A DNA stretch of 64,000 nucleotides from Escherichia coli (GTDB taxonomy: Bacteria; Pseudomonadota; Gammaproteobacteria; Enterobacterales; Enterobacteriaceae), in assembly GCF_050920415.1 (NCBI RefSeq), contig NZ_CP169309.1, one strand, 5' to 3'. The notes beneath the pieces were generated by a model, which made no database searches, was not told the origin of the DNA, and was given only the letters and a program-made list of their open reading frames with translations. Below are positions 9,339 to 59,339 of the stretch, piece by piece; positions within the stretch are counted from its first letter, which is position 1; each line of letters opens with the position of its first letter. The position numbers were made by a program, and so were the translations under genes.

Positions 9339-10709
9339 ATGAAAAAATTAACCTGCTTTAAAGCCTATGATATTCGCGGAAAATTAGGCGAAGAACTGAA
9401 TGAAGATATCGCCTGGCGTATTGGGCGTGCCTATGGCGAATTTCTCAAACCGAAAACCATTGTTTTAGGCGGTGATGTCCGTCTCACCAGCGAAACCTTA
9501 AAACTGGCGCTGGCAAAAGGGTTACAGGATGCGGGCGTTGACGTGCTGGATATCGGCATGTCCGGCACCGAAGAGATCTATTTCGCCACGTTCCATCTCG
9601 GCGTGGATGGCGGCATCGAAGTTACCGCCAGCCATAATCCGATGGATTACAACGGCATGAAACTGGTGCGCGAAGGGGCTCGCCCGATCAGCGGTGATAC
9701 TGGACTGCGCGACGTCCAGCGTCTGGCAGAAGCCAACGATTTTCCTCCCGTCGATGAAACCAAACGCGGTCGCTATCAGCAAATCAACCTGCGCGACGCT
9801 TACGTTGATCATCTGTTCGGTTATATCAATGTCAAAAACCTTACGCCGCTCAAGCTGGTGATCAACTCCGGGAACGGCGCGGCGGGTCCGGTGGTGGACG
9901 CCATCGAAGCCCGCTTTAAAGCCCTCGGCGCACCCGTGGAATTGATCAAAGTACACAACACGCCGGACGGCAATTTCCCCAACGGTATTCCTAATCCATT
10001 GCTGCCGGAATGCCGCGACGATACCCGCAATGCGGTCATTAAACACGGCGCGGATATGGGTATTGCTTTTGATGGCGATTTTGACCGCTGTTTCCTGTTT
10101 GACGAAAAAGGACAGTTTATCGAGGGCTACTACATTGTCGGCCTGCTGGCAGAAGCGTTCCTCGAAAAAAATCCCGGCGCGAAGATCATCCACGATCCGC
10201 GTCTTTCCTGGAACACCGTTGATGTAGTGACTGCCGCAGGCGGCACCCCGGTGATGTCAAAAACCGGACACGCCTTTATTAAAGAACGTATGCGCAAGGA
10301 AGACGCCATCTACGGTGGCGAAATGAGCGCCCACCATTACTTCCGTGATTTCGCTTACTGCGACAGCGGCATGATCCCGTGGCTGCTGGTCGCCGAACTG
10401 GTGTGCATGAAAGGGAAAACGCTGGGCGAACTGGTGCGCGACCGCATGGCGGCATTCCCGGCAAGCGGTGAGATCAACAGCAAACTGGCGCAACCCGTTG
10501 AGGCGATTAATCGCGTCGAACAGCATTTTAGCCGCGAGGCGCTGGCGGTGGATCGCACCGATGGCATCAGCATGACCTTTGCCGACTGGCGCTTTAATCT
10601 GCGCTCCTCCAACACCGAACCGGTGGTGCGCCTGAATGTGGAATCGCGCGGTGATGTGCCGCTGATGGAAGCGCGAACGCGAACTCTGCTGACGTTGCTG
10701 AACGAGTAA
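9339..10709 (+). CDS. cpsG: Phosphomannomutase
   Basis: Listed ORF starts at 9276; internal ATG at 9339 ([14 protein letters not shown]...) gives 456 aa; phosphohexomutase motifs ([16 protein letters not shown]). Confidence 0.93.
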
Positions 10710-10763
10710 TGTCGGATCTTCCCTTACCCCATTGCGGGTAAGGGGCTAATAACAGGAACAACG

Positions 10764-12158
10764 ATGACAAATCTAAAAAAGCGCGAGCGAGCGAAAACCA
10801 ATGCATCGTTAATCTCTATGGTGCAACGCTTTTCAGATATCACCATCATGTTTGCCGGGCTATGGCTGGTTTGCGAAGTCAGCGGACTGTCATTCCTCTA
10901 CATGCACCTGTTGGTGGCGCTGATTACGCTGGTGGTGTTCCAGATGTTGGGCGGCATCACCGATTTTTATCGCTCATGGCGAGGTGTTCGGGCAACGACA
11001 GAATTTGCCCTGCTGCTGCAAAACTGGACCTTAAGCGTGATTTTTAGCGCCGGACTGGTGGCGTTCAACAATGATTTCGACACGCAACTGAAAATCTGGC
11101 TGGCGTGGTATGGGCTGACCAGCATCGGGTTGGTGGCGTGTCGTTCGTGTATTCGCATTGGTGCGGGCTGGTTGCGTAATCATGGCTATAACAAGCGTAT
11201 GGTTGCCGTAGCGGGGGATTTAGCTGCCGGGCAAATGCTGATGGAGAGCTTCCGTAATCAGCCGTGGTTAGGGTTTGAAGTGGTGGGCGTTTACCACGAC
11301 CCAAAACCGGGCGGCGTTTCTAACGACTGGGCGGGCAATCTGCAACAGCTGGTCGAGGATGCGAAAGCGGGCAAGATTCATAACGTCTATATCGCGATGC
11401 AAATGTGCGACGGCGCACGAGTGAAAAAACTGGTCCATCAACTGGCGGACACCACCTGTTCGGTGCTGCTGATCCCCGACGTCTTTACCTTCAACATTCT
11501 CCATTCACGCCTCGAAGAGATGAACGGCGTTCCGGTGGTGCCGCTGTACGACACGCCGCTTTCCGGGGTTAACCGCCTGATAAAACGTGCGGAAGACATT
11601 GTGCTGGCAACGCTGATCTTGCTGCTGATCTCCCCGGTGCTGTGCTGTATTGCGCTGGCGGTGAAACTCAGTTCACCAGGGCCGGTTATTTTCCGCCAGA
11701 CACGCTACGGCATGGATGGCAAGCCGATCAAAGTGTGGAAGTTCCGTTCCATGAAAGTGATGGAGAACGACAAAGTGGTGACCCAGGCGACGCAGAACGA
11801 TCCGCGCGTCACCAAAGTGGGGAACTTTCTGCGCCGCACCTCGCTGGATGAATTGCCGCAGTTTATCAATGTGCTGACTGGCGGGATGTCGATTGTGGGG
11901 CCACGTCCGCACGCCGTGGCGCATAACGAACAATATCGCCAGCTCATTGAAGGCTACATGCTGCGCCATAAGGTGAAACCGGGCATTACCGGCTGGGCGC
12001 AGATTAACGGCTGGCGCGGCGAAACCGACACGCTGGAGAAAATGGAAAAACGCGTCGAGTTCGACCTTGAGTACATCCGCGAATGGAGCGTCTGGTTCGA
12101 TATCAAAATCGTTTTCCTGACGGTATTCAAAGGCTTCGTTAACAAAGCGGCATATTGA
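10764..12158 (+). CDS. wcaJ: UDP-glucose:undecaprenyl-phosphate glucose-1-phosphate transferase WcaJ
   Basis: 464-aa ORF with N-terminal TM segments and a C-terminal bacterial sugar-transferase domain (...GPRPHAVAHNEQY...). Confidence 0.92.
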   Translation: MTNLKKRERAKTNASLISMVQRFSDITIMFAGLWLVCEVSGLSFLYMHLLVALITLVVFQMLGGITDFYRSWRGVRATTEFALLLQNWTLSVIFSAGLVAFNNDFDTQLKIWLAWYGLTSIGLVACRSCIRIGAGWLRNHGYNKRMVAVAGDLAAGQMLMESFRNQPWLGFEVVGVYHDPKPGGVSNDWAGNLQQLVEDAKAGKIHNVYIAMQMCDGARVKKLVHQLADTTCSVLLIPDVFTFNILHSRLEEMNGVPVVPLYDTPLSGVNRLIKRAEDIVLATLILLLISPVLCCIALAVKLSSPGPVIFRQTRYGMDGKPIKVWKFRSMKVMENDKVVTQATQNDPRVTKVGNFLRRTSLDELPQFINVLTGGMSIVGPRPHAVAHNEQYRQLIEGYMLRHKVKPGITGWAQINGWRGETDTLEKMEKRVEFDLEYIREWSVWFDIKIVFLTVFKGFVNKAAY

Positions 12159-21984: not shown

Positions 21985-22398
21985 ATGATGGATATTAAAT
22001 TAATCTCTTTGCAAAAACATGGGGATGAGCGTGGTGCATTAATTGCTCTTGAAGAGCAACGAAATATACCTTTCGAAGTCAAAAGAATATATTACATACT
22101 CGAGACTCTTAAGGGAGTAAGACGCGGATTTCATGCGCACAAGGTTACTCGTCAGTTAGCTATTGTAGTCAAGGGAGCTTGTAAATTTCATCTGGATAAT
22201 GGTAAAGAAACAAAGCAGGTGGAACTTAATGATCCAACAATTGCGTTGCTGATAGAACCCTATATATGGCATGAAATGTATGATTTTAGTGATGATTGTG
22301 TGCTGCTTGTAATTGCGGATGATTTCTATAAAGAGTCTGATTATATACGCAATTATGATGATTTTATTAGAAGAGTAAATTCAATTGAGAATTCATAA
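21985..22398 (+). CDS. fdtA: dTDP-4-keto-6-deoxyglucose 3,4-ketoisomerase (FdtA/QdtA-type cupin)
   Basis: 137-aa ORF; small cupin of the WxcM C-terminal/FdtA type (...RGFHAHK...WHEMYDFS...); sits between rmlA and an acetyltransferase/aminotransferase pair. Galacto- versus gluco-configured product cannot be told by eye. Confidence 0.7.
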
Positions 22399-22852
22399 GC
22401 TAAGTGACGTCCAGACAACATCAATTGGTGATGGAACAACTATCTGGCAGTTTGTTGTAATACTAAAAGGTGCTGTAATTGGTAATAATTGCAACATCTG
22501 TGCAAATACCTTGATTGAAAATAACGTTGTAATTGGTAACAATGTCACAGTCAAAAGCGGTGTGTATATTTGGGATGGCGTTAAAATAGAGGATAATGTT
22601 TTTATTGGTCCTTGTGTAGCATTTACAAATGATAAGTATCCTCGCTCTAAAGTCTATCCTGATGAATTTTTGCACACAATAATACGCAAAGGAGCATCAA
22701 TAGGTGCTAATGCAACCATCCTGCCAGGAATTGAAATTGGTGAAAAAGCAATCGTTGGTGCGGGGAGTGTCGTAACCAAAAATGTACCGCCATGCGCAAT
22801 AGTAGTAGGTAATCCAGCTCGATTTATTAAATGGGTAGAGGATAATGAATAA
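22385..22852 (+). CDS. fdtC: dTDP-3-amino-3,6-dideoxyhexose N-acetyltransferase (hexapeptide-repeat, FdtC-type)
   Basis: 155-aa ORF with left-handed beta-helix repeats ([23 protein letters not shown]...); probable TTG start at 22385 overlapping the fdtA 3' end, start uncertain. Confidence 0.7.
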
Positions 22853-30244: not shown

Positions 30245-31381
30245 ATGGAACTTAAAAAATTGATGGAACATATTTCTATTATCCCCGATTACAGACAAGC
30301 CTGGAAAGTGGAACATAAATTATCGGATATTCTACTGTTGACTATTTGTGCCGTCATTTCTGGTGCAGAAGGCTGGGAAGATATAGAGGATTTTGGAGAA
30401 ACACATCTCGATTTTTTGAAGCAATATGGTGATTTTGAAAATGGTATTCCTGTTCACGATACCATTGCCAGAGTTGTATCCTGTATCAGTCCTGCAAAAT
30501 TTCACGAGTGCTTTATTAACTGGATGCGAGATTGCCATACTTCAGATGATAAAGACGTCATCGCAATTGATGGAAAAACACTCCGGCATTCTTATGACAA
30601 GAGTCGCCGTAAGGGAGCGATTCATGTCATTAGTGCGTTCTCAACAATGCACAGTCTGGTCATCGGACAGATCAAGACGGATGAGAAATCCAATGAGATT
30701 ACAGCCATCCCTGAACTTCTTAACATGTTGGATATTAAAGGGAAAATTATCACAACTGATGCGATGGGTTGCCAGAAAGATATTGCAGAGAAGATACAAA
30801 AACAGGGAGGTGATTATTTATTCGCTGTAAAAGGAAATCAGCGTCGGCTTAATAAAGCCTTTGAAGAAAAATTCCCACTGAAAGAATTAAATAATCCAGA
30901 GCATGACAGTTATGCAATTAGTGAAAAGAGTCACGGCAGAGAAGATATCCGTCTTCATATTGTTTGCGATGACCCTGATGAACTTATTGATTTCACGTTT
31001 GAATGGAAAGGACTGAAAAAATTATGCGTGGCAGTCTCCTTTCGCTCAATAATAGCAGAGCAAAAGAAAGAGCCCGAAATGATGGTCAGATATTATATCA
31101 GTTCTGCTGATTTAACCGCTGAGAAGTTTGCGACAGCGATTTGAAATCACTGGCACGTGGAGAATAAGCTGCACTGGCGTCTGGACGTGGTAATGAATGA
31201 AGACGATTGTAAAATAAGAAGAGGAAATGCAGCAGAATTATTTTCTGGGATACGGCACATTGCTATTAATATTTTGACGAATGATAAGGTATTCAAGACA
31301 GGATTAAGACGTAAGATGCGAAAAGCAGCCATGGACAGAAACTATCTCGCGTCAGTCCTTGCGGGGAGCGGGCTTTACTAG
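30245..31381 (+). mobile_element. ISAs1-family (H-repeat-associated) transposase gene interrupted by a single in-frame TGA (pseudogene)
   Basis: 299-aa ORF (30245-31144) and 74-aa ORF (31157-31381) are in the same frame, separated only by TGA at 31142-31144; the combined about 378-aa product has the ISAs1 motif ...[21 protein letters not shown]... with the stop at a conserved Arg position. Confidence 0.8.
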
Positions 31382-44574: not shown

Positions 44575-44797
44575 AAAAGTCTCTGTGAATGTTTATTCAA
44601 CTGATGTCTTTTAACCTAAACCACTTTCACGTTAGAAAGCAAGGGCTTTTTTATATATTTTATGGCGATGGATTTGTTTAATGAATGAGCGGGGAAAGGA
44701 GAGGGCCAGGAGTGGCTACGTTAAAAAAGTAATCGTGAAAATATGTCTTTAAAACCCTCAAGAACATTGTGTTCTGTAACTAAAGTGGGCTTGGTTC

Positions 44798-44905
44798 CTG
44801 CCGGATGCGGCGTGAATGCCTTATCTGGTCTACAAATGTTGCCTAAATTCAATATATTGATGTTTTTGTAGGACTGATAAGCGGAGCGCATCAGGCAATT
44901 GTATA
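44798..44905. repeat. REP/BIME-type palindromic repeats between hisL and yeeZ
   Basis: gcctgccggatgcggcgtgaatgccttatctggtctaca and tgtaggactgataagcggagcgcatcaggca resemble the REP consensus. Confidence 0.6.
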
Positions 44906-45000
44906 TTTGCTAACAGTTTCGATTTCATTCATAGAATGAATTGTCAGTTTTGATACGCTAGCGTAGCCTTATAGATCTAAGGTGTATCAGGAGATAACGG

Positions 45001-48425: not shown

Positions 48426-48464
48426 TCTTACAAGCCGGATGACATAATCATCCGGTAAATCTCA

Positions 48465-48497
48465 AAAAGCCGGAGTTTGTCGCTCCGGCTTTTTTGT
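48465..48497. terminator. Bidirectional rho-independent terminator between convergent plaP and sbcB
   Basis: aaaaagccggagtttgtcgctccggcttttttg: perfect hairpin flanked by A-run and T-run. Confidence 0.75.
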
Positions 48498-48498
48498 T

Positions 48499-52091: not shown

Positions 52092-53150
52092 GTGCGTGCC
52101 GATAAGTCATTAAGCCCGTTTGAAATCCGGGTATACCGCCATTACCGCATTGTGCATGGTACTCGGGTCGCGCTGGCATTCCTGCTCACTTTTCTCATTA
52201 TCCGCCTGTTTACTATCCCGGAAAGCACCTGGCCGCTGGTCACCATGGTGGTGATTATGGGGCCAATCTCGTTCTGGGGTAACGTTGTCCCTCGCGCATT
52301 CGAACGTATTGGCGGTACGGTGTTGGGGTCGATTTTAGGTCTTATCGCTCTGCAACTGGAGTTAATCTCGTTACCGCTGATGTTAGTCTGGTGCGCGGCG
52401 GCTATGTTTCTTTGCGGTTGGCTGGCGCTGGGCAAGAAACCGTATCAAGGTTTATTGATTGGGGTGACGCTGGCAATTGTTGTTGGTTCCCCGACAGGTG
52501 AAATTGATACGGCGTTATGGCGAAGCGGCGATGTGATCCTCGGCTCTTTACTGGCAATGTTGTTTACCGGTATCTGGCCACAACGGGCGTTCATCCACTG
52601 GCGCATTCAACTGGCGAAAAGTCTGACCGAGTATAATCGGGTCTATCAATCTGCATTCTCACCGAACTTACTCGAACGCCCACGTCTGGAAAGCCATCTA
52701 CAAAAACTCCTGACCGATGCCGTGAAAATGCGTGGGCTGATTGCGCCCGCCAGCAAAGAAACCCGTATTCCCAAATCGATATATGAAGGTATCCAGACCA
52801 TTAATCGCAATCTGGTTTGTATGCTGGAGTTGCAAATCAATGCATACTGGGCCACGCGCCCCAGCCATTTCGTGTTATTGAACGCGCAAAAACTTCGTGA
52901 TACCCAGCACATGATGCAGCAAATACTGCTGAGCCTTGTTCATGCGCTGTACGAAGGTAATCCGCAGCCGGTTTTTGCCAATACGGAAAAATTGAACGAT
53001 GCTGTGGAAGAGCTGCGTCAGTTGCTCGATAACCACCATGACCTGAAGGTCGTGGAAACACCAATCTATGGCTATGTGTGGCTGAACATGGAAACGGCAC
53101 ATCAGCTTGAGTTGCTATCGAATCTGATTTGCCGGGCCTTGCGCAAATAA
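52092..53150 (+). CDS. yeeA: Inner-membrane protein YeeA (fusaric-acid-resistance/aromatic acid exporter-like)
   Basis: 352-aa ORF with TM N-terminal half; position after sbmC. Confidence 0.82.
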   Translation: MRADKSLSPFEIRVYRHYRIVHGTRVALAFLLTFLIIRLFTIPESTWPLVTMVVIMGPISFWGNVVPRAFERIGGTVLGSILGLIALQLELISLPLMLVWCAAAMFLCGWLALGKKPYQGLLIGVTLAIVVGSPTGEIDTALWRSGDVILGSLLAMLFTGIWPQRAFIHWRIQLAKSLTEYNRVYQSAFSPNLLERPRLESHLQKLLTDAVKMRGLIAPASKETRIPKSIYEGIQTINRNLVCMLELQINAYWATRPSHFVLLNAQKLRDTQHMMQQILLSLVHALYEGNPQPVFANTEKLNDAVEELRQLLDNHHDLKVVETPIYGYVWLNMETAHQLELLSNLICRALRK

Positions 53151-53321
53151 TTCCTGAACTTCAGAATCATCTTGCTGCTGCTTCGATTCAGCAAGGATAA
53201 AGGGTATGATAGTGAAAAGGGATAAAAGCATTGTCATCTGCGGCAGCTATGAGTAATGTTGGCCCTAACGAATAGCGGTTGCTTAAACGAATCCGACTCT
53301 CACATTATCAGGGGTATAAAA

Positions 53322-53651
53322 ATGGAAACTACCAAGCCTTCATTCCAGGATGTACTGGAATTTGTTCGTCTGTTCCGTCGTAAGAACAAACTGCAACGTG
53401 AAATTCAGGACGTTGAGAAAAAGATCCGTGACAACCAGAAGCGCGTCCTGCTGCTGGACAACCTGAGTGATTACATCAAGCCGGGGATGAGCGTTGAAGC
53501 AATCCAGGGCATCATCGCCAGCATGAAAGGTGACTATGAAGATCGCGTTGACGATTACATCATCAAAAATGCCGAGCTCTCCAAAGAACGCCGCGATATC
53601 TCCAAAAAGCTGAAAGCTATGGGCGAAATGAAAAACGGCGAAGCGAAGTAA
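53322..53651 (+). CDS. yeeX: UPF0265-family protein YeeX
   Basis: ATG at 53322 ([29 protein letters not shown]...) gives 109 aa. Confidence 0.85.
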
Positions 53652-53751
53652 TTCCTGTTTTATTCAATGAGGGTTGCCCGGTAACCCTCATTGCTCATTG
53701 TTTCTTTTCTGTGTATCACCGTCATCATTCCCATCTGATAACCTATTGAAA

Positions 53752-54048
53752 TTAGCGATAGCCTTCTTCTGTATGCAGCAAGGCAAAAAGTTCTGCAACT
53801 CCATTGTTATTAACCGCACTGGTTACTAACACATTGTGCGCTCCAGCTTCCCGTAACCAACTTTTCACCAAAGATATTTGTTCCATACTGGCTAAATCTG
53901 CTTTGGTGACTACTCCAATGACCGGGCGATTCATTGACGAGGTAAAGCCTGGCGAAAAAGGTGACCACGGTGCGTCCGCATTAAGTACCAGCGCGATAAT
54001 GTCTGCTTCGCAGGCACTGACTAACAGAGCACTGTAGAGGCTGCGGTT
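53752..54048 (-). pseudogene. yoeF: EutP/PduV-family GTPase remnant lacking the N-terminal P-loop (yoeF-like)
   Basis: Stop-to-stop frame on the minus strand: ...[84 protein letters not shown]; has C-terminal EutP/PduV character but no GxxxxGKT/S. Confidence 0.6.
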
Positions 54049-54519
54049 TTATCGGTGAGGACTGGCAGCAAGATTTCCAGCCTTTTGACGGTGGGCCTGT
54101 GCAATCGTTATCAGATTCGTATAGCGATTATTCAGTGCTGCTATTGATAGCAGCTGAAAGCGAGATATCCGTACCAGAATAGCTCCCTCATTCTGAGGGA
54201 ACGACGGTAATTTTGATTGCAGAACACAATGCCCGTTTGCTGAATGGTCCGGCTGGTGGGGCTGTAGCATTAATCCATTATTTGAATGAAATCAGTCATG
54301 CCAGAGAAACCGCTGTCAATGACGCATTTTGTCGGACGTTAACACGAGGAAGTCTGGCTATTCCGCAATGCCATCTTCTTTCGTAATGGATTGAGAATGC
54401 TGGATTTTTAATTATATTACGCGCAGTATTAATCGCGTAAATGTTTTGCGGTCAGCAACAGTGGGGGAACCATTGTTCTGTTCAATGAATACCATCATAC
54501 AATTGAATCAGGAGTCGGT

Positions 54520-55065
54520 ATGATGATTTTGGTGACAGGTGGAGCACGGAGCGGGAAGAGTCGCCACGCAGAGGCGCTTATTGGGGACTCTTCACAGGTT
54601 CTGTATATCGCCACCTCGCAAATCCTTGATGATGAGATGGCTGCACGGATAGAACATCATCGGCAAGGCCGCCCGGCTCACTGGCGCACAGTGGAGCGCT
54701 GGCAACATCTTGATGAATTAATTCATGCAGACATTAACCCGAATGAGGCTGTGTTGCTGGAATGCGTTACCACAATGGTGACTAATCTGTTGTTTGATTA
54801 TGGCGGCGATAAAGACCCTGATGAATGGGATTATCAGGCGATGGAACAGGCGATTAATGCTGAGATTCAGTCGTTGATTGCTGCCTGCCAACGTTGCCCC
54901 GCAAAGGTTGTATTAGTGACTAACGAAGTGGGAATGGGGATTGTGCCGGAGAGTCGTCTGGCACGACATTTTCGTGATATTGCCGGGCGGGTAAATCAGC
55001 AGTTGGCCGCTGCGGCAAATGAAGTATGGCTGGTGGTTTCGGGTATTGGAGTAAAAATCAAATGA
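54520..55065 (+). CDS. cobU: Adenosylcobinamide kinase / adenosylcobinamide-phosphate guanylyltransferase
   Basis: 181-aa [25 protein letters not shown]... with P-loop. Confidence 0.93.
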
Positions 55066-55805
55066 GTAAATTATTTTGGGCGATGCTCTCATTTATTACG
55101 CGTCTGCCTGTACCGCGTCGCTGGTCCCAGGGACTGGATTTCGAGCATTATTCTCGCGGTATTATTGCTTTTCCTTTAATTGGATTATTGCTTGGCGCGA
55201 TTAGCGGGCTGGTCTTCATGGTGCTGCAGGCATGGTGTGGCGTACCACTGGCGGCATTGTTTAGCGTACTTGTGCTGGCGCTGATGACCGGGGGATTCCA
55301 CCTGGACGGCCTCGCTGATACCTGTGATGGCGTATTTTCTGCACGTAGCCGCGATCGCATGTTGGAAATCATGCGTGATAGCCGTTTAGGCACCCACGGC
55401 GGTCTGGCATTGATTTTTGTTGTACTGGCAAAGATTCTGGTGTTAAGCGAGCTGGCTTTGCGTGGCGAACCGATCCTTGCATCGCTGGCGGCAGCATGCG
55501 CGGTCAGCCGCGGGACTGCCGCATTATTGATGTATCGTCATCGTTATGCCCGAGAAGAAGGGCTTGGCAATGTGTTCATTGGCAAAATTGATGGGCGACA
55601 AACCTGCGTCACACTCGGTTTAGCCGCTATTTTTGCTGCCGTATTATTGCCTGGTATGCATGGCGTGGCTGCTATGTTGGTGACGATGGTGGCGATCTTC
55701 ATCCTCGGTCAGCTTCTCAAACGGACTCTGGGCGGGCAAACCGGCGATACGCTGGGAGCAGCCATAGAGCTTGGTGAACTGGTCTTCCTGCTGGCACTGC
55801 TATAA
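55062..55805 (+). CDS. cobS: Adenosylcobinamide-GDP ribazoletransferase (cobalamin synthase)
   Basis: ATG at 55062 ([18 protein letters not shown]...) gives 247 aa; membrane protein; start overlaps the cobU stop. Confidence 0.92.
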
Positions 55806-55816
55806 AGAGACGTGAC

Positions 55817-56896
55817 ATGCAAACACTTGCCAATTTACTGAATACGATCCCTGCCATCGATCCTGCCGCTATGTCGCGTGCACAACGGCATATTGACGGG
55901 TTGCTCAAACCTGTTGGTAGCCTGGGAAGGCTGGAGGCGCTTGGCGTACAACTGGCGGGAATGCCGGGGTTGAATGGCATACCGCATGTGGGCAAAAAAG
56001 CGGTACTGGTTATGTGTGCCGATCACGGCGTCTGGGAGGAAGGGGTCGCTATTTCCCCAAAAGAAGTGACAGCCATTCAGGCTGAAAATATGACCCGCGG
56101 AACAACCGGCGTGTGTGTGCTGGCAGCACAAGCGGGCGCTTACGTCCACGTAATTGATGTTGGTATTGATACTGCTGAGCCTATCCCCGGGCTTATCAAC
56201 ATGCGTGTCGCACGAGGTAGCGGCAATATTGCTTCAGCTCCGGCAATGAGTCGCCGTCAGGCTGAAACGTTGCTTTTGGACGTCATATGCTATACGCGGG
56301 AGCTGGCAAAAAACGGTGTCACGCTGTTTGGTGTAGGTGAACTGGGGATGGCAAACACGACACCGGCAGCGGCGATAGTGAGCACAATCACTGGCCGGGA
56401 TCCTGAAGAAGTGGTTGGGATTGGCGCAAACCTGCCGACAGATAAACTGGCTAATAAAATTGATGTTGTGCGACGGGCGATTACGTTGAATCAACCAAAT
56501 CCGCAGGATGGCGTTGATGTCCTGGCAAAAGTGGGTGGATTTGATTTGGTCGGAATGGCTGCCGTGATGTTAGGCGCTGCGTCCTGCGGTTTACCGGTGT
56601 TGCTGGATGGATTTCTTTCTTATGCTGCCGCGCTCGCAGCCTGCCAGATGTCTCCTGCAATCAAACCGTATCTCATTCCTTCTCACCTGTCGGCAGAAAA
56701 AGGGGCGCGTATAGCGTTGTCGCATTTGGGGCTGGAGCCTTATCTCAATATGGATATGCGTTTAGGTGAGGGAAGTGGCGCAGCTCTGGCGATGCCCATC
56801 ATCGAAGCTGCCTGTGCGATATACAACAGCATGGGCGAACTTGCTGCCAGTAATATTGTTCTACCGGGGAATACGACTTCTGATTTGAACAGTTAA
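55817..56896 (+). CDS. cobT: Nicotinate-nucleotide--dimethylbenzimidazole phosphoribosyltransferase
   Basis: 359-aa [43 protein letters not shown]... Confidence 0.93.
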
Positions 56897-56957: not shown

Positions 56958-57640
56958 ATGATGCGTCGTGTAAATATTTTTTGCTCATTTGCTCTACTTT
57001 TTGCCAGCCATAATAGCCTGGCGGTAACTTATCCATTACCTCCAGAGGGTAGCCGTTTAGTGGGACAGTCGCTTACTGTAACTGTTCCTGATCACAATAC
57101 CCAGCCGCTGGAGACTTTTGCCGCACAATACGGGCAAGGGTTAAGTAACATGCTGGAAGCGAATCCGGGGGCTGATGTCTTCTTACCGAAGTCTGGCTCG
57201 CAACTCACCATTCCGCAGCAACTGATTTTGCCCGCCACTGTTCGTAAAGGGATTGTGATTAACGTCGCTGAGATGCGTCTTTATTACTACCCGCCAGACA
57301 GTAATACTGTGGAAGTCTTTCCTATTGGTATCGGCCAGGCTGGGCGAGAAACCCCGCGTAACTGGGTGACTACCGTTGAACGTAAACAAGAAGCACCAAC
57401 CTGGACGCCAACGCCGAACACCCGGCGCGAATATGCGAAACGAGGGGAGAGTTTGCCCGCATTTGTTCCTGCGGGGCCTGATAATCCCATGGGGCTGTAC
57501 GCGATTTATATTGGCAGGCTATATGCCATCCACGGTACCAATGCCAATTTTGGTATTGGGCTCCGGGTAAGTCAGGGCTGTATTCGTCTGCGCAATGACG
57601 ATATCAAATATCTGTTTGATAATGTTCCTGTAGGTACTCG
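56958..57640 (+). pseudogene. ldtA: L,D-transpeptidase LdtA (ErfK), 5' portion, interrupted by an IS element
   Basis: [36 protein letters not shown]... with the catalytic region (...[24 protein letters not shown]...); after ...NVPVGTR the frame runs into IS sequence. Confidence 0.85.
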
Positions 57641-57694
57641 TGAACCGCCCCGGAAATCCTGGAGACTAAACTTCCTGAGAAAGAGGTAAACAGG

Positions 57695-58021
57695 ATGACT
57701 AAAAATACTCGTTTTTCCCCCGAAGTCCGTCAACGCGCAGTTCGTATGGTTCTGGAAAGTCAGGGCGAATATGACTCACAATGGGCGGCAATTTGTTCCA
57801 TTGCTCCAAAGATTGGCTGTACGCCAGAGACTCTGCGTGTCTGGGTTCGCCAGCATGAGAGGGATACCGGGAGCGGTGATGGTGGGCTCACCACCGCTGA
57901 ACGTCAGCGTCTGAAAGAGCTGGAACGTGAAAATCGTGAACTGCGCCGCAGTAACGATATCCTTCGCCAGGCTTCCGCTTATTTTGCGAAGGCGGAGTTC
58001 GACCGCCTCTGGAAAAAATAA
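57695..58021 (+). CDS. IS3-family transposase OrfA (HTH DNA-binding)
   Basis: 108-aa [45 protein letters not shown]...; ends in the A-rich run ctggaaaaaataa at the orfA/orfB overlap. Confidence 0.9.
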
Positions 58022-58908
58022 TGCCACTGCTGGATAAGCTGCGTGAGCAGTACGGGGTCGGACCGGTATGCAGTGAACTGCATATTGCCCCGTCAACGTA
58101 TTACCATTGTCAGCAGCAGCGGCATCATCCTGATAAACGCAGTGCCCGTGCGCAGCGCGATGACTGGCTGAAGAGAGAGATACAGCGCGTATACGATGAA
58201 AATCATCAGGTGTACGGTGTGCGTAAAGTCTGGCGTCAGTTGTTACGGGAAGGAATCAGGGTGGCCAGATGTACAGTGGCGCGCCTCATGGCGGTTATGG
58301 GACTTGCCGGTGTTCTCCGGGGTAAAAAGGTCCGCACTACCGTCAGCCGGAAAACCGTTGCCACAGGTGACCGCGTAAACCGTCAGTTCGTGGCAGAACG
58401 TCCTGACCAGCTGTGGGTGGCTGATTTTACTTACGTCAGCACATGGCAGGGCTTCGTCTATGTGGCGTTCATCATTGATGTGTTTGCCGGATACATCGTG
58501 GGGTGGCGGGTCTCATCGTCTATGGAAACGACATTCGTGCTGGATGCGCTGGAGCAGGCGTTGTGGGCCCGTCGTCCGTCTGGCACCATCCATCACAGCG
58601 ATAAAGGCTCTCAGTATGTGTCACTGGCCTATACGGAGCGACTAAAAGAAGCAAAACTGCTGGCATCAACAGGGAGTACAGGCGACTCGTATGACAACGC
58701 GATGGCTGAGAGCATCAATGGTCTTTACAAAGCGGAGGTAATACACCGTAAGAGCTGGAAAAACCGTGCAGAAGTGGAACTGGCCACACTCACGTGGGTG
58801 GACTGGTATAACAATCGACGATTGCTGGGAAGGCTGGGCCATACTCCTCCGGCAGAAGCAGAAAAAGCTTATTATGCTTCCATCGGAAACAATGATCTGG
58901 CAGCCTGA
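58021..58908 (+). CDS. IS3-family transposase OrfB (DDE integrase domain), probably expressed as an OrfAB -1 frameshift fusion
   Basis: 295-aa ORF in the -1 frame relative to orfA; DDE/integrase-core motifs (...HHSDKGSQYVS...DNAMAESINGLYKAE...). Confidence 0.9.
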   Translation: MPLLDKLREQYGVGPVCSELHIAPSTYYHCQQQRHHPDKRSARAQRDDWLKREIQRVYDENHQVYGVRKVWRQLLREGIRVARCTVARLMAVMGLAGVLRGKKVRTTVSRKTVATGDRVNRQFVAERPDQLWVADFTYVSTWQGFVYVAFIIDVFAGYIVGWRVSSSMETTFVLDALEQALWARRPSGTIHHSDKGSQYVSLAYTERLKEAKLLASTGSTGDSYDNAMAESINGLYKAEVIHRKSWKNRAEVELATLTWVDWYNNRRLLGRLGHTPPAEAEKAYYASIGNNDLAA

Positions 58909-58950
58909 GTTCACAGATAAAACACTCTCCAGGAAACCCGGGGCGGTTCA

Positions 58951-59208
58951 ACTCGTGTACAAATTATTGATCAGCCAGTGAAATACACAACGGAACCGGA
59001 TGGATCAAAGTGGCTGGAAGTTCATGAGCCACTGTCGCGCAACCGTGCGGAATATGAGTCAGACCGAAAAGTGCCTTTGCCAGTAACGCCATCTTTGCGG
59101 ACGTTCATTAACGGGCAAGAAGTTGATGTGAATCGCGCAAATGCTGCATTGCAGCGCCGATCAGGAATGCCTGTGCAAATTAGTTCTGGTTCAAGACAGA
59201 TGTTTTAA
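58951..59208 (+). pseudogene. ldtA: L,D-transpeptidase LdtA (ErfK), 3' portion downstream of the IS insertion
   Basis: Continues the ldtA frame after the IS: (T)RVQIIDQPVKYTTEPDGSKWLEVHEPLSRNRAEYESDRKVPLPVTPSLRTFINGQEVDVNRANAALQRRSGMPVQISSGSRQMF*. Confidence 0.85.
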
Positions 59209-59258: not shown

Positions 59259-59263
59259 GAATT

Positions 59264-59339
59264 TGGCTCCTCTGACTGGACTCGAACCAGTGACATACGG
59301 ATTAACAGTCCGCCGTTCTACCGACTGAACTACAGAGGA
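59264..59339 (-). tRNA. asnV: tRNA-Asn (anticodon GUU)
   Basis: Reverse complement is TCCTCTGTAGTTCAGTCGGTAGAACGGCGGACTGTTAATCCGTATGTCACTGGTTCGAGTCCAGTCAGAGGAGCCA; cloverleaf with GTT anticodon and encoded CCA. Confidence 0.95.

What the first reader, a model, noticed from the sequence alone, without database searches (positions are those of the whole stretch)
53752..54519. Deletion scar of the pdu/cbi region: PduV/EutP-like remnant abuts cobU, with no CP4-44 prophage
Between yeeX and cobU there is only about 870 bp. It contains a minus-strand stop-to-stop frame with clear EutP/PduV-family C-terminal similarity but no P-loop, consistent with the yoeF pseudogene, then about 470 bp with no convincing ORF. 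E. coli is known to have lost the Salmonella-type pdu and cbi operons at this position, and in K-12 the CP4-44 cryptic prophage (with flu/Ag43) sits between yoeF and cobU; here the junction is direct. This may be the ancestral pre-insertion arrangement and can delimit the prophage attachment site.
Basis: partly seen in the sequence, partly recalled or inferred. Interest (0 to 1): 0.35.

Follow-up and report, generated by a model that had tools for sequence, protein, structure and literature searches.

The report
Pdu operon deletion scar, E. coli
This is an ordinary, already annotated scar in an E. coli chromosome where a 17-kb deletion removed the propanediol-utilisation genes, leaving two broken gene ends next to the vitamin B12 salvage genes; it is not the empty landing site of the K-12 CP4-44 element.

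Summary
Between tmaR/yeeX and cobU, the window has a minus-strand PduV/EutP remnant (53752-54048, residues 50-147, no P-loop). It is joined directly to the cobU upstream region, with no CP4-44 island.

The "empty" 470 bp is not featureless. It holds a 5'-truncated remnant of cbiG, not cbiP (54051-54386), with a TGG>TAG stop at 54180-54182.

Comparison with pdu-positive E. coli shows that the window equals that arrangement minus about 17.25 kb. The lost stretch covers the pduV 5' end through pduA, pduF, pocR, the B12 riboswitch and the first 32 codons of the cbiG remnant. The joint is GTTTT-ATC-GGTGAGG.

E. albertii and E. marmotae carry the pdu-positive arrangement, so it is ancestral and the scar is derived.

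Among 5426 complete E. coli genomes:
- 200 carry this exact scar;
- 643 keep pduC;
- 4171 have the K-12-type left junction.

K-12 lacks 280 bp of the window (53935-54214), including the scar joint. Its island is bounded by truncated IS fragments and has no integrase, tRNA or target duplication. The scar therefore cannot delimit an attachment site.

RefSeq already annotates both pseudogenes in the 100%-identical strain. Verdict: real, ordinary, already known.

The parts
53322..53651 (+). tmaR (yeeX), intact left neighbour
   Evidence: RefSeq annotation of the identical record; ORF list.
53665..53693 (.). 13-bp-stem hairpin between the convergent tmaR and pduV ends; likely a shared terminator
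   Evidence: Terminator-like hit. The inverted repeat also appears as a reverse self-match in BLAST.
53752..54048 (-). pduV 3' remnant (yoeF equivalent): stop codon plus codons 50-147; P-loop and DTPG motifs deleted
   Evidence: PF10662 E=5.9e-28, profile 50-142/143. TIGR02528 E=1.3e-27. Comparison with the intact 147-aa PduV of L003. PGAP pseudogene.
54046..54053 (.). Deletion joint: GTTTT (54046-54050) is shared by both parental flanks; ATC (54051-54053) matches neither. The joint creates the TAA that closes the pduV frame.
   Evidence: BLAST of the window against pdu-positive L003: left match ends at 54050, right match starts at 54046. Sequence views. Identical joint in 5 scar loci. 200 genomes cover the 121-bp joint probe.
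54051..54386 (+). cbiG 5'-remnant pseudogene, corresponding to codons 33-145 of the 145-aa ORF of pdu-positive E. coli; nonsense TAG at 54180-54182
   Evidence: PGAP 'cobalamin biosynthesis protein, internal stop'. NF004463 cobalt-precorrin 5A hydrolase: E=9.5e-5 for the remnant and E=1.2e-19 for the intact ORF over profile 1-126/351. 35% identity to residues 1-125 of a genuine 358-aa CbiG. TGG in the other alleles versus TAG here.
54391..54418 (+). Promoter-like site (TTGAGA-16-TATATT) about 100 bp upstream of cobU; candidate proximal cob promoter (inference only)
   Evidence: Consensus scan, 10/12 match, not above the shuffle expectation.
54520..55065 (+). cobU, intact
55062..55805 (+). cobS, intact
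55817..56896 (+). cobT, intact

Best explanation
The interval is a non-functional scar left by one deletion of about 17.25 kb in an E. coli ancestor. That ancestor carried the genus-typical arrangement tmaR - pduV...pduA - pduF - pocR - B12 riboswitch - cbiG 5' remnant - cobUST.

The deletion ran from codon 49/50 of pduV to codon 32/33 of the cbiG remnant. It joined the two at a 5-nt microhomology (GTTTT) followed by 3 nt (ATC) of unknown origin.

It removed the whole Pdu microcompartment pathway, its regulator PocR, the facilitator PduF and the cobalamin riboswitch. cobUST stayed intact. Those genes must now be read from a proximal promoter, or by read-through, without riboswitch control (inferred, not shown).

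The cbi genes themselves had been lost much earlier, before Escherichia species diverged.

The K-12 arrangement, with CP4-44 in place of pdu, is a separate derived haplotype. Its borders are deletion joints inside IS remnants, not integration joints. The scar is therefore neither its empty site nor a guide to an att site.
For: Shown:
- Window 53200-54050 matches L003 20001-20851, and window 54046-54700 matches L003 38104-38758, at 98.5% and 97.6% identity.
- The L003 interval between those matches holds the rest of pduV, pduU to pduA, pduF, pocR, the riboswitch and the start of the 145-aa ORF. E24377A has the same layout.
- No Rfam riboswitch is present in window 53000-55200.
- The joint GCGGTTTT-ATC-GGTGAGG is identical in the window and four other scar strains that differ by 2-8% around it.
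- 200 of 5426 genomes cover the joint probe.
- E. albertii and E. marmotae contigs have pduA..., pduF, pocR, a 144-aa ORF and the cob genes.
- pduC is present in 643 genomes.
- K-12 and O157 junctions map to window 53934 and 54215. Their islands contain no pdu fragment.
- The island's left edge is the C-terminal 45 aa of an IS66 transposase (PF13817, E=5e-16).
- The K-12-type left joint is present in 4171 genomes.

Inferred: a single origin of the scar, later spread by recombination; and altered cobUST regulation.
Against: - The three joint bases ATC are not explained by either parental flank in the two pdu-positive references I read. The exact breakpoint and repair route are therefore uncertain.
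- Scar alleles resemble different pdu-positive alleles. FORC_041 is 99.7% identical to E24377A on the right flank, and the window is 98.4% identical to AHB5. This needs either recombination after a single deletion or recurrence.
- I did not place the haplotypes on a genome phylogeny.
Confidence: 0.88

Rival explanations
1. One reading: the direct pduV'-cobU junction is the ancestral pre-insertion state. CP4-44 later integrated into it, so the comparison marks the prophage attachment site.
For: - K-12 and the window share the same pduV 3' end and the same distal part of the cbiG remnant.
- K-12 has no pdu genes and no pdu fragments inside the island.
- A path from pdu-positive to scar to island insertion, followed by local deletions, is not formally excluded.
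Against: - K-12 lacks 280 bp of the window (53935-54214), including the scar joint itself. No K-12 sequence shows it ever had that joint.
- Both island borders are truncated IS fragments. They are therefore deletion joints.
- There is no integrase, tRNA or direct repeat.
- The island haplotype's right flank is the outlier among E. coli at 93.6-96%. Scar alleles nest among pdu-positive alleles.
- Sister species are pdu-positive.
Confidence: 0.06
2. The scar arose repeatedly: the same deletion recurred independently in several pdu-positive lineages at a hotspot.
For: - Scar alleles pair with different pdu-positive alleles on their flanks.
- A short GTTTT microhomology lies at the joint.
Against: - All five scar sequences inspected share the non-templated ATC at the joint.
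- Five nucleotides of microhomology is too little to direct identical recurrent events.
- This region next to the O-antigen and his loci is a documented recombination zone (PMC5359238, PMC9997745).
Confidence: 0.04
3. The scar was produced by loss (excision or deletion) of a K-12-type island.
For: The island haplotype is by far the commonest, with 4171 genomes.
Against: The scar contains 280 bp of pduV and cbiG-remnant sequence that the island haplotype does not have. A deletion cannot restore it.
Confidence: 0.01

Closest known systems
E. coli K-12 yoeF pseudogene at the CP4-44 border
   Same: Same pduV 3' fragment next to tmaR/yeeX (97.3% identity over window 53200-53934).
   Different: - K-12 keeps only the last 60 codons; the window keeps 98.
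- In K-12 the fragment abuts a truncated IS66 remnant and a 12.7-kb island.
- K-12's cbiG remnant starts 164 bp further in.
pdu-positive E. coli locus (E24377A, AHB5; also E. albertii and E. marmotae)
   Same: Same flanks, same order and same alleles. The window is collinear with it on both sides of the joint.
   Different: The window lacks the 17.25 kb that carries pduV 5' to pduA, pduF, pocR, the riboswitch and the first 32 codons of the cbiG remnant.
Salmonella enterica pdu-pocR-cob regulon
   Same: Same chromosomal neighbourhood and the same divergent pdu / pocR / cob layout. This rests on my own knowledge (Bobik et al. 1999; Lawrence & Roth 1995/1996). PMC9997745 reports the E. coli pdu operon mapping to 94% of the LT2 sequence at 77.5% identity.
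   Different: - Escherichia has no cbiA-P genes, only a cbiG 5' fragment.
- Its pdu operon ends at pduV with no pduW or pduX before tmaR.
- I made no direct alignment to Salmonella DNA.

Membership tests
PduV/EutP microcompartment GTPase family (PF10662, TIGR02528) | Significant match to the family profile | tested here: met
   PF10662 E=5.9e-28; TIGR02528 E=1.3e-27, 96.8 bits, below the full-length cutoff of 138 because only profile positions 49-141 are present.
PduV/EutP microcompartment GTPase family (PF10662, TIGR02528) | Complete protein with N-terminal P-loop (GxxxxGKT) and DxxG motifs | tested here: not met
   Residues 1-49 are absent, including GPSQCGKT and DTPG. The frame is closed by a TAA created at the joint. 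It is a gene fragment, not a family member that can function.
CbiG (cobalt-precorrin 5A hydrolase, NF004463) | Homology to the CbiG N-terminal region | tested here: met
   The intact 145-aa allele matches at E=1.2e-19 over profile 1-126/351; the window remnant matches at E=9.5e-5. 35% identity to residues 1-125 of a 358-aa protein that passes the NF004463 cutoff.
CbiG (cobalt-precorrin 5A hydrolase, NF004463) | Full-length enzyme (about 350 aa) with middle and C-terminal domains | tested here: not met
   Even the intact allele is only 145 aa. The window copy also lacks 32 codons and has a TAG.
   Peptides of 29 aa or more from the translated frames of 54387-54519, and of 29 aa or more from the L003 riboswitch-to-ORF gap, gave no cobalamin-family hit at E<=10.
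Prophage or integrative-island attachment site (empty attB) | The two island-chromosome junctions of the occupied form meet at one point in the empty form | tested here: not met
   The junctions map to window 53934 and 54215, which are 280 bp apart.
Prophage or integrative-island attachment site (empty attB) | Direct repeat or target duplication, integrase, and usually a tRNA at the border | tested here: not met
   No repeat at the junction sequences. No integrase or tRNA is annotated in the K-12 or O157 islands. The borders are truncated IS66 and IS4 fragments.
Cobalamin riboswitch (Rfam RF00174) upstream of cob genes | Covariance-model match upstream of cobU | tested here: not met
   No Rfam match at E<=1 in window 53000-55200. 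The riboswitch annotated in pdu-positive strains lies inside the deleted interval.

The most novel reading that the evidence does not exclude
The scar is a single old deletion allele that homologous recombination has carried into unrelated E. coli backgrounds, linked to O-antigen/his exchange. In addition, the 144/145-aa cbiG 5' remnant that it truncates is not junk in pdu-positive Escherichia. It would be a weakly constrained, riboswitch-controlled small protein co-transcribed with cobUST. The supporting data are an ORF that stays open in E. coli, E. albertii and E. marmotae, with dN/dS about 0.4.
Probability: 0.2. Interest if true: 0.3.

Novelty: already known. Interest (0 to 1): 0.1.

Why it matters
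It matters little beyond bookkeeping.

It gives a base-level description of one of three main haplotypes at the E. coli pdu/cob locus: pdu-positive in about 12% of complete genomes, the scar in about 4%, and the CP4-44-type island in about 77%. It also corrects two easy assumptions. The sequence beside cobU is a cbiG fragment, not a cbiP fragment. And CP4-44 does not sit at a definable att site here.

Practical consequences:
- Scar strains cannot use 1,2-propanediol through Pdu.
- Their cobUST genes have lost the B12 riboswitch.
- The joint is a convenient PCR or k-mer marker for this haplotype in typing studies of pdu, which has been linked to adherent-invasive and dog-associated E. coli lineages.

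Tried and rejected
- Looked for a CbiP or CbiA remnant between the joint and cobU, and between the riboswitch and the 145-aa ORF in L003. Nothing found.
- Pfam does not recognise the cbiG remnant; only NCBIfam and direct comparison do.
- The PDB sequence search with the 145-aa ORF found nothing.
- Looked for pdu, pocR or riboswitch fragments inside the K-12 and O157 islands, which would have shown insertion into a pdu-positive ancestor. None found.
- Pfam did not confirm PGAP's IS4-family call for the island's right-edge fragment. That point rests on the annotation alone.
- Searched for E. coli genomes with a full cbi operon. The two pdu-positive E. coli and the two sister-species loci I inspected all lack it. 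I did not screen all 643.
- The promoter scan near cobU was not above shuffle expectation, so I make no promoter claim.
- I did not align to Salmonella DNA. No Salmonella sequence is in the collections used, and I ran no further search on it.

Full report
**What is there.** The window is E. coli. Bases 53200-54700 are 100% identical to strain MFDS1022581, NZ_CP169399.1. RefSeq annotates that stretch in this order:
- tmaR (= yeeX);
- an EutP/PduV pseudogene "missing N-terminus", on the minus strand;
- a "cobalamin biosynthesis protein" pseudogene with an internal stop, on the plus strand;
- cobU, cobS and cobT.

In window coordinates these are tmaR 53322-53651, pduV remnant 53752-54048, second pseudogene 54051-54386 and cobU 54520-55065.

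**The PduV remnant is real.** The stop-to-stop minus frame translates to 98 residues. It matches Pfam PF10662 at E=5.9e-28 over profile positions 50-142 of 143, and TIGR02528 at E=1.3e-27. Against an intact 147-aa PduV from a pdu-positive E. coli, it corresponds to residues 50-147 and differs only at the penultimate residue. The P-loop GPSQCGKT and the DTPG motif are gone.

**The "empty" 470 bp is not empty.** It contains a fragment of a 145-aa ORF that pdu-positive E. coli carry between the B12 riboswitch and cobU.
- That ORF matches the N-terminal 126 positions of the CbiG model NF004463 at E=1.2e-19.
- It is 35% identical to residues 1-125 of a 358-aa protein that passes the CbiG equivalog cutoff.
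- The window copy lacks the first 32 codons and carries TAG where other alleles have TGG, at 54180-54182.
- Nothing resembling CbiP or CbiA was detectable in the remaining stretches.

**What the scar came from.** Some E. coli have an intact pdu locus here. Examples are AHB5 (L003) and E24377A (L005). Their order is tmaR, pduV to pduA on the minus strand, pduF, pocR, cobalamin riboswitch, the 145-aa ORF, then cobUST. They have no cbi genes and no pduW/X.
- Window 53200-54050 aligns to L003 20001-20851, and window 54046-54700 aligns to L003 38104-38758. The window is therefore this arrangement minus about 17.25 kb.
- At the joint the window reads GCGGTTTT-ATC-GGTGAGG.
- The left parent continues GGTTTT-CGAGG. 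The right parent reads TTGTTTT-GTT-GGTGAGG.
- So GTTTT is shared microhomology, and ATC matches neither parent.
- No riboswitch is detectable in the window.

**Which state is ancestral.** The 144-aa orthologue of the cbiG remnant in E. albertii and E. marmotae sits in the same pduA..., pduF, pocR, ORF, cob context. The pdu-positive, cbi-negative arrangement therefore predates E. coli. The scar is derived. The loss of cbi is older than the genus.

**Population picture in 5426 complete genomes.**

| Haplotype marker | Genomes | Call |
|---|---|---|
| This exact scar (joint probe, and contiguous match) | 200 | 3, 15 |
| pduC present | 643 | 35 |
| K-12-type left junction | 4171 | 41 |
| Other arrangements | roughly 400 | by difference |

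The "other" group includes a further deletion of window 53929-54332 in strain KY176. Five scar sequences that differ by 2-8% around the joint all share the same joint, including ATC. That argues for one event. On the flanks, scar alleles pair with different pdu-positive alleles. I attribute this to recombination, because the locus lies beside the his and O-antigen recombination zone (PMC5359238, PMC9997745). This step is inference.

**The CP4-44 question.** K-12 does have the island between the pduV fragment and cobU. It carries yeeW, cbtA/cbeA, yeeS, yeeR, Ag43, a TonB-receptor pseudogene, IS2 and IS5. O157 has a variant with the same borders. Several points argue against an attachment site:
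- The K-12 junctions map to window 53934 and 54215. So 280 bp of the window, including the scar joint, has no counterpart in K-12.
- The island's left edge is the last 45 codons of an IS66-family transposase (PF13817, E=5e-16).
- Its right edge is annotated as an internal IS4-family fragment.
- An element that arrives by transposition or integration has intact ends. Internally truncated IS genes at both borders mean both borders are deletion joints.
- No integrase, tRNA or flanking repeat is present.
- The island haplotype's 305-bp right flank is the outlier among E. coli, at 93.6-96% identity.

The scar therefore cannot be shown to be the pre-insertion state and cannot define an att site. The reverse route, from island to scar, is excluded because the scar holds sequence the island form lacks.

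**How it "works".** It does not work; it is a loss allele.
- Shown: the Pdu pathway genes, pocR, pduF and the riboswitch are absent, and cobUST are intact.
- Inferred: these strains cannot degrade 1,2-propanediol via Pdu. They express cobUST without B12-riboswitch control, from a proximal promoter or by read-through. A promoter-like site at 54391-54418 is no better than chance.

**Known or new.** Both pseudogenes are already annotated in the identical RefSeq record. The gene order yoeF followed directly by cobU appears in a published gene table for STEC O182/O156 (PMC5359238). Variable presence of pdu in E. coli is well documented (PMC9997745; other titles). From memory, Lawrence & Roth (1995, 1996) discussed the loss of cob/pdu in the E. 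coli lineage. The base-level joint and the haplotype counts are modest additions.

**Verdict.** The feature is real, correctly spotted, ordinary and already known. The "ancestral empty site / att site" idea is not supported.

Noticed in passing
L003:38007-38444, L005:19904-20341, L011:10001-10435, L014:10001-10435 (window remnant 54051-54386): The cbiG 5' remnant stays an open 144/145-aa ORF in pdu-positive E. coli, E. albertii and E. marmotae, despite about 30% amino-acid divergence. dN/dS is about 0.4, against 0.04 for pocR and 0.1 for cobU. This is relaxed but not neutral, so it may be an expressed small protein downstream of the B12 riboswitch. Homologues were found only in Escherichia/Shigella, apart from distant full-length CbiG proteins.
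   Followed up: partly
window 56958-59206: ldtA (erfK), downstream of cobT, is split by a frameshifted IS3-family element (about 57695-58906). tRNA-Asn follows at about 59262-59337.
   Followed up: no
window 48426-48498: Only 73 bp separate plaP and sbcB. K-12, O157 and AHB5 have tsuA/tsuB (yeeE/yeeD) there, so this strain has a second small gene loss in the same neighbourhood.
   Followed up: no
window 44575-45000: The yefM-yoeB toxin-antitoxin pair found between hisL and yeeZ in K-12 and AHB5 is absent here, as it is in O157.
   Followed up: no
window 22385-22831 and 30245-31381: The O-antigen cluster is of the O2/O50 wzx/wzy type. It contains two acyltransferase pseudogene fragments and an ISAs1 transposase pseudogene.
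   Followed up: no
L002:20736-20935 and L010:33814-34009: The K-12/O157 CP4-44-type island is bounded on the left by a truncated IS66-family transposase C-terminus. On the right it is bounded by a fragment that PGAP calls an IS4-family transposase. Both borders look like deletion joints rather than integration joints.
   Followed up: partly
L011-L013 (E. albertii), 10436-11900: In E. albertii, no cobU or cobT gene is called between the 144-aa ORF and ldtA; only cobS is. The cobU region aligns only partially, at about 70% identity. The cob salvage genes may be decaying in that species.
   Followed up: no
L004:3553-3910 (strain JNEC-KY176): This is a further-deleted variant. Window 53929-54332 is missing, with a short overlap of up to 6 nt at the joint, leaving a 177-bp pduV fragment 180 bp from cobU. 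In the same strain, yeeA is split by IS621.
   Followed up: partly
L007:2538-2897, L008:2538-2897, L006:2538-2894: In other scar strains, PGAP calls an intact 118/119-aa chimeric ORF. It starts antisense inside the pduV remnant and reads through the joint into the cbiG remnant. The window's TAG destroys it.
   Followed up: no
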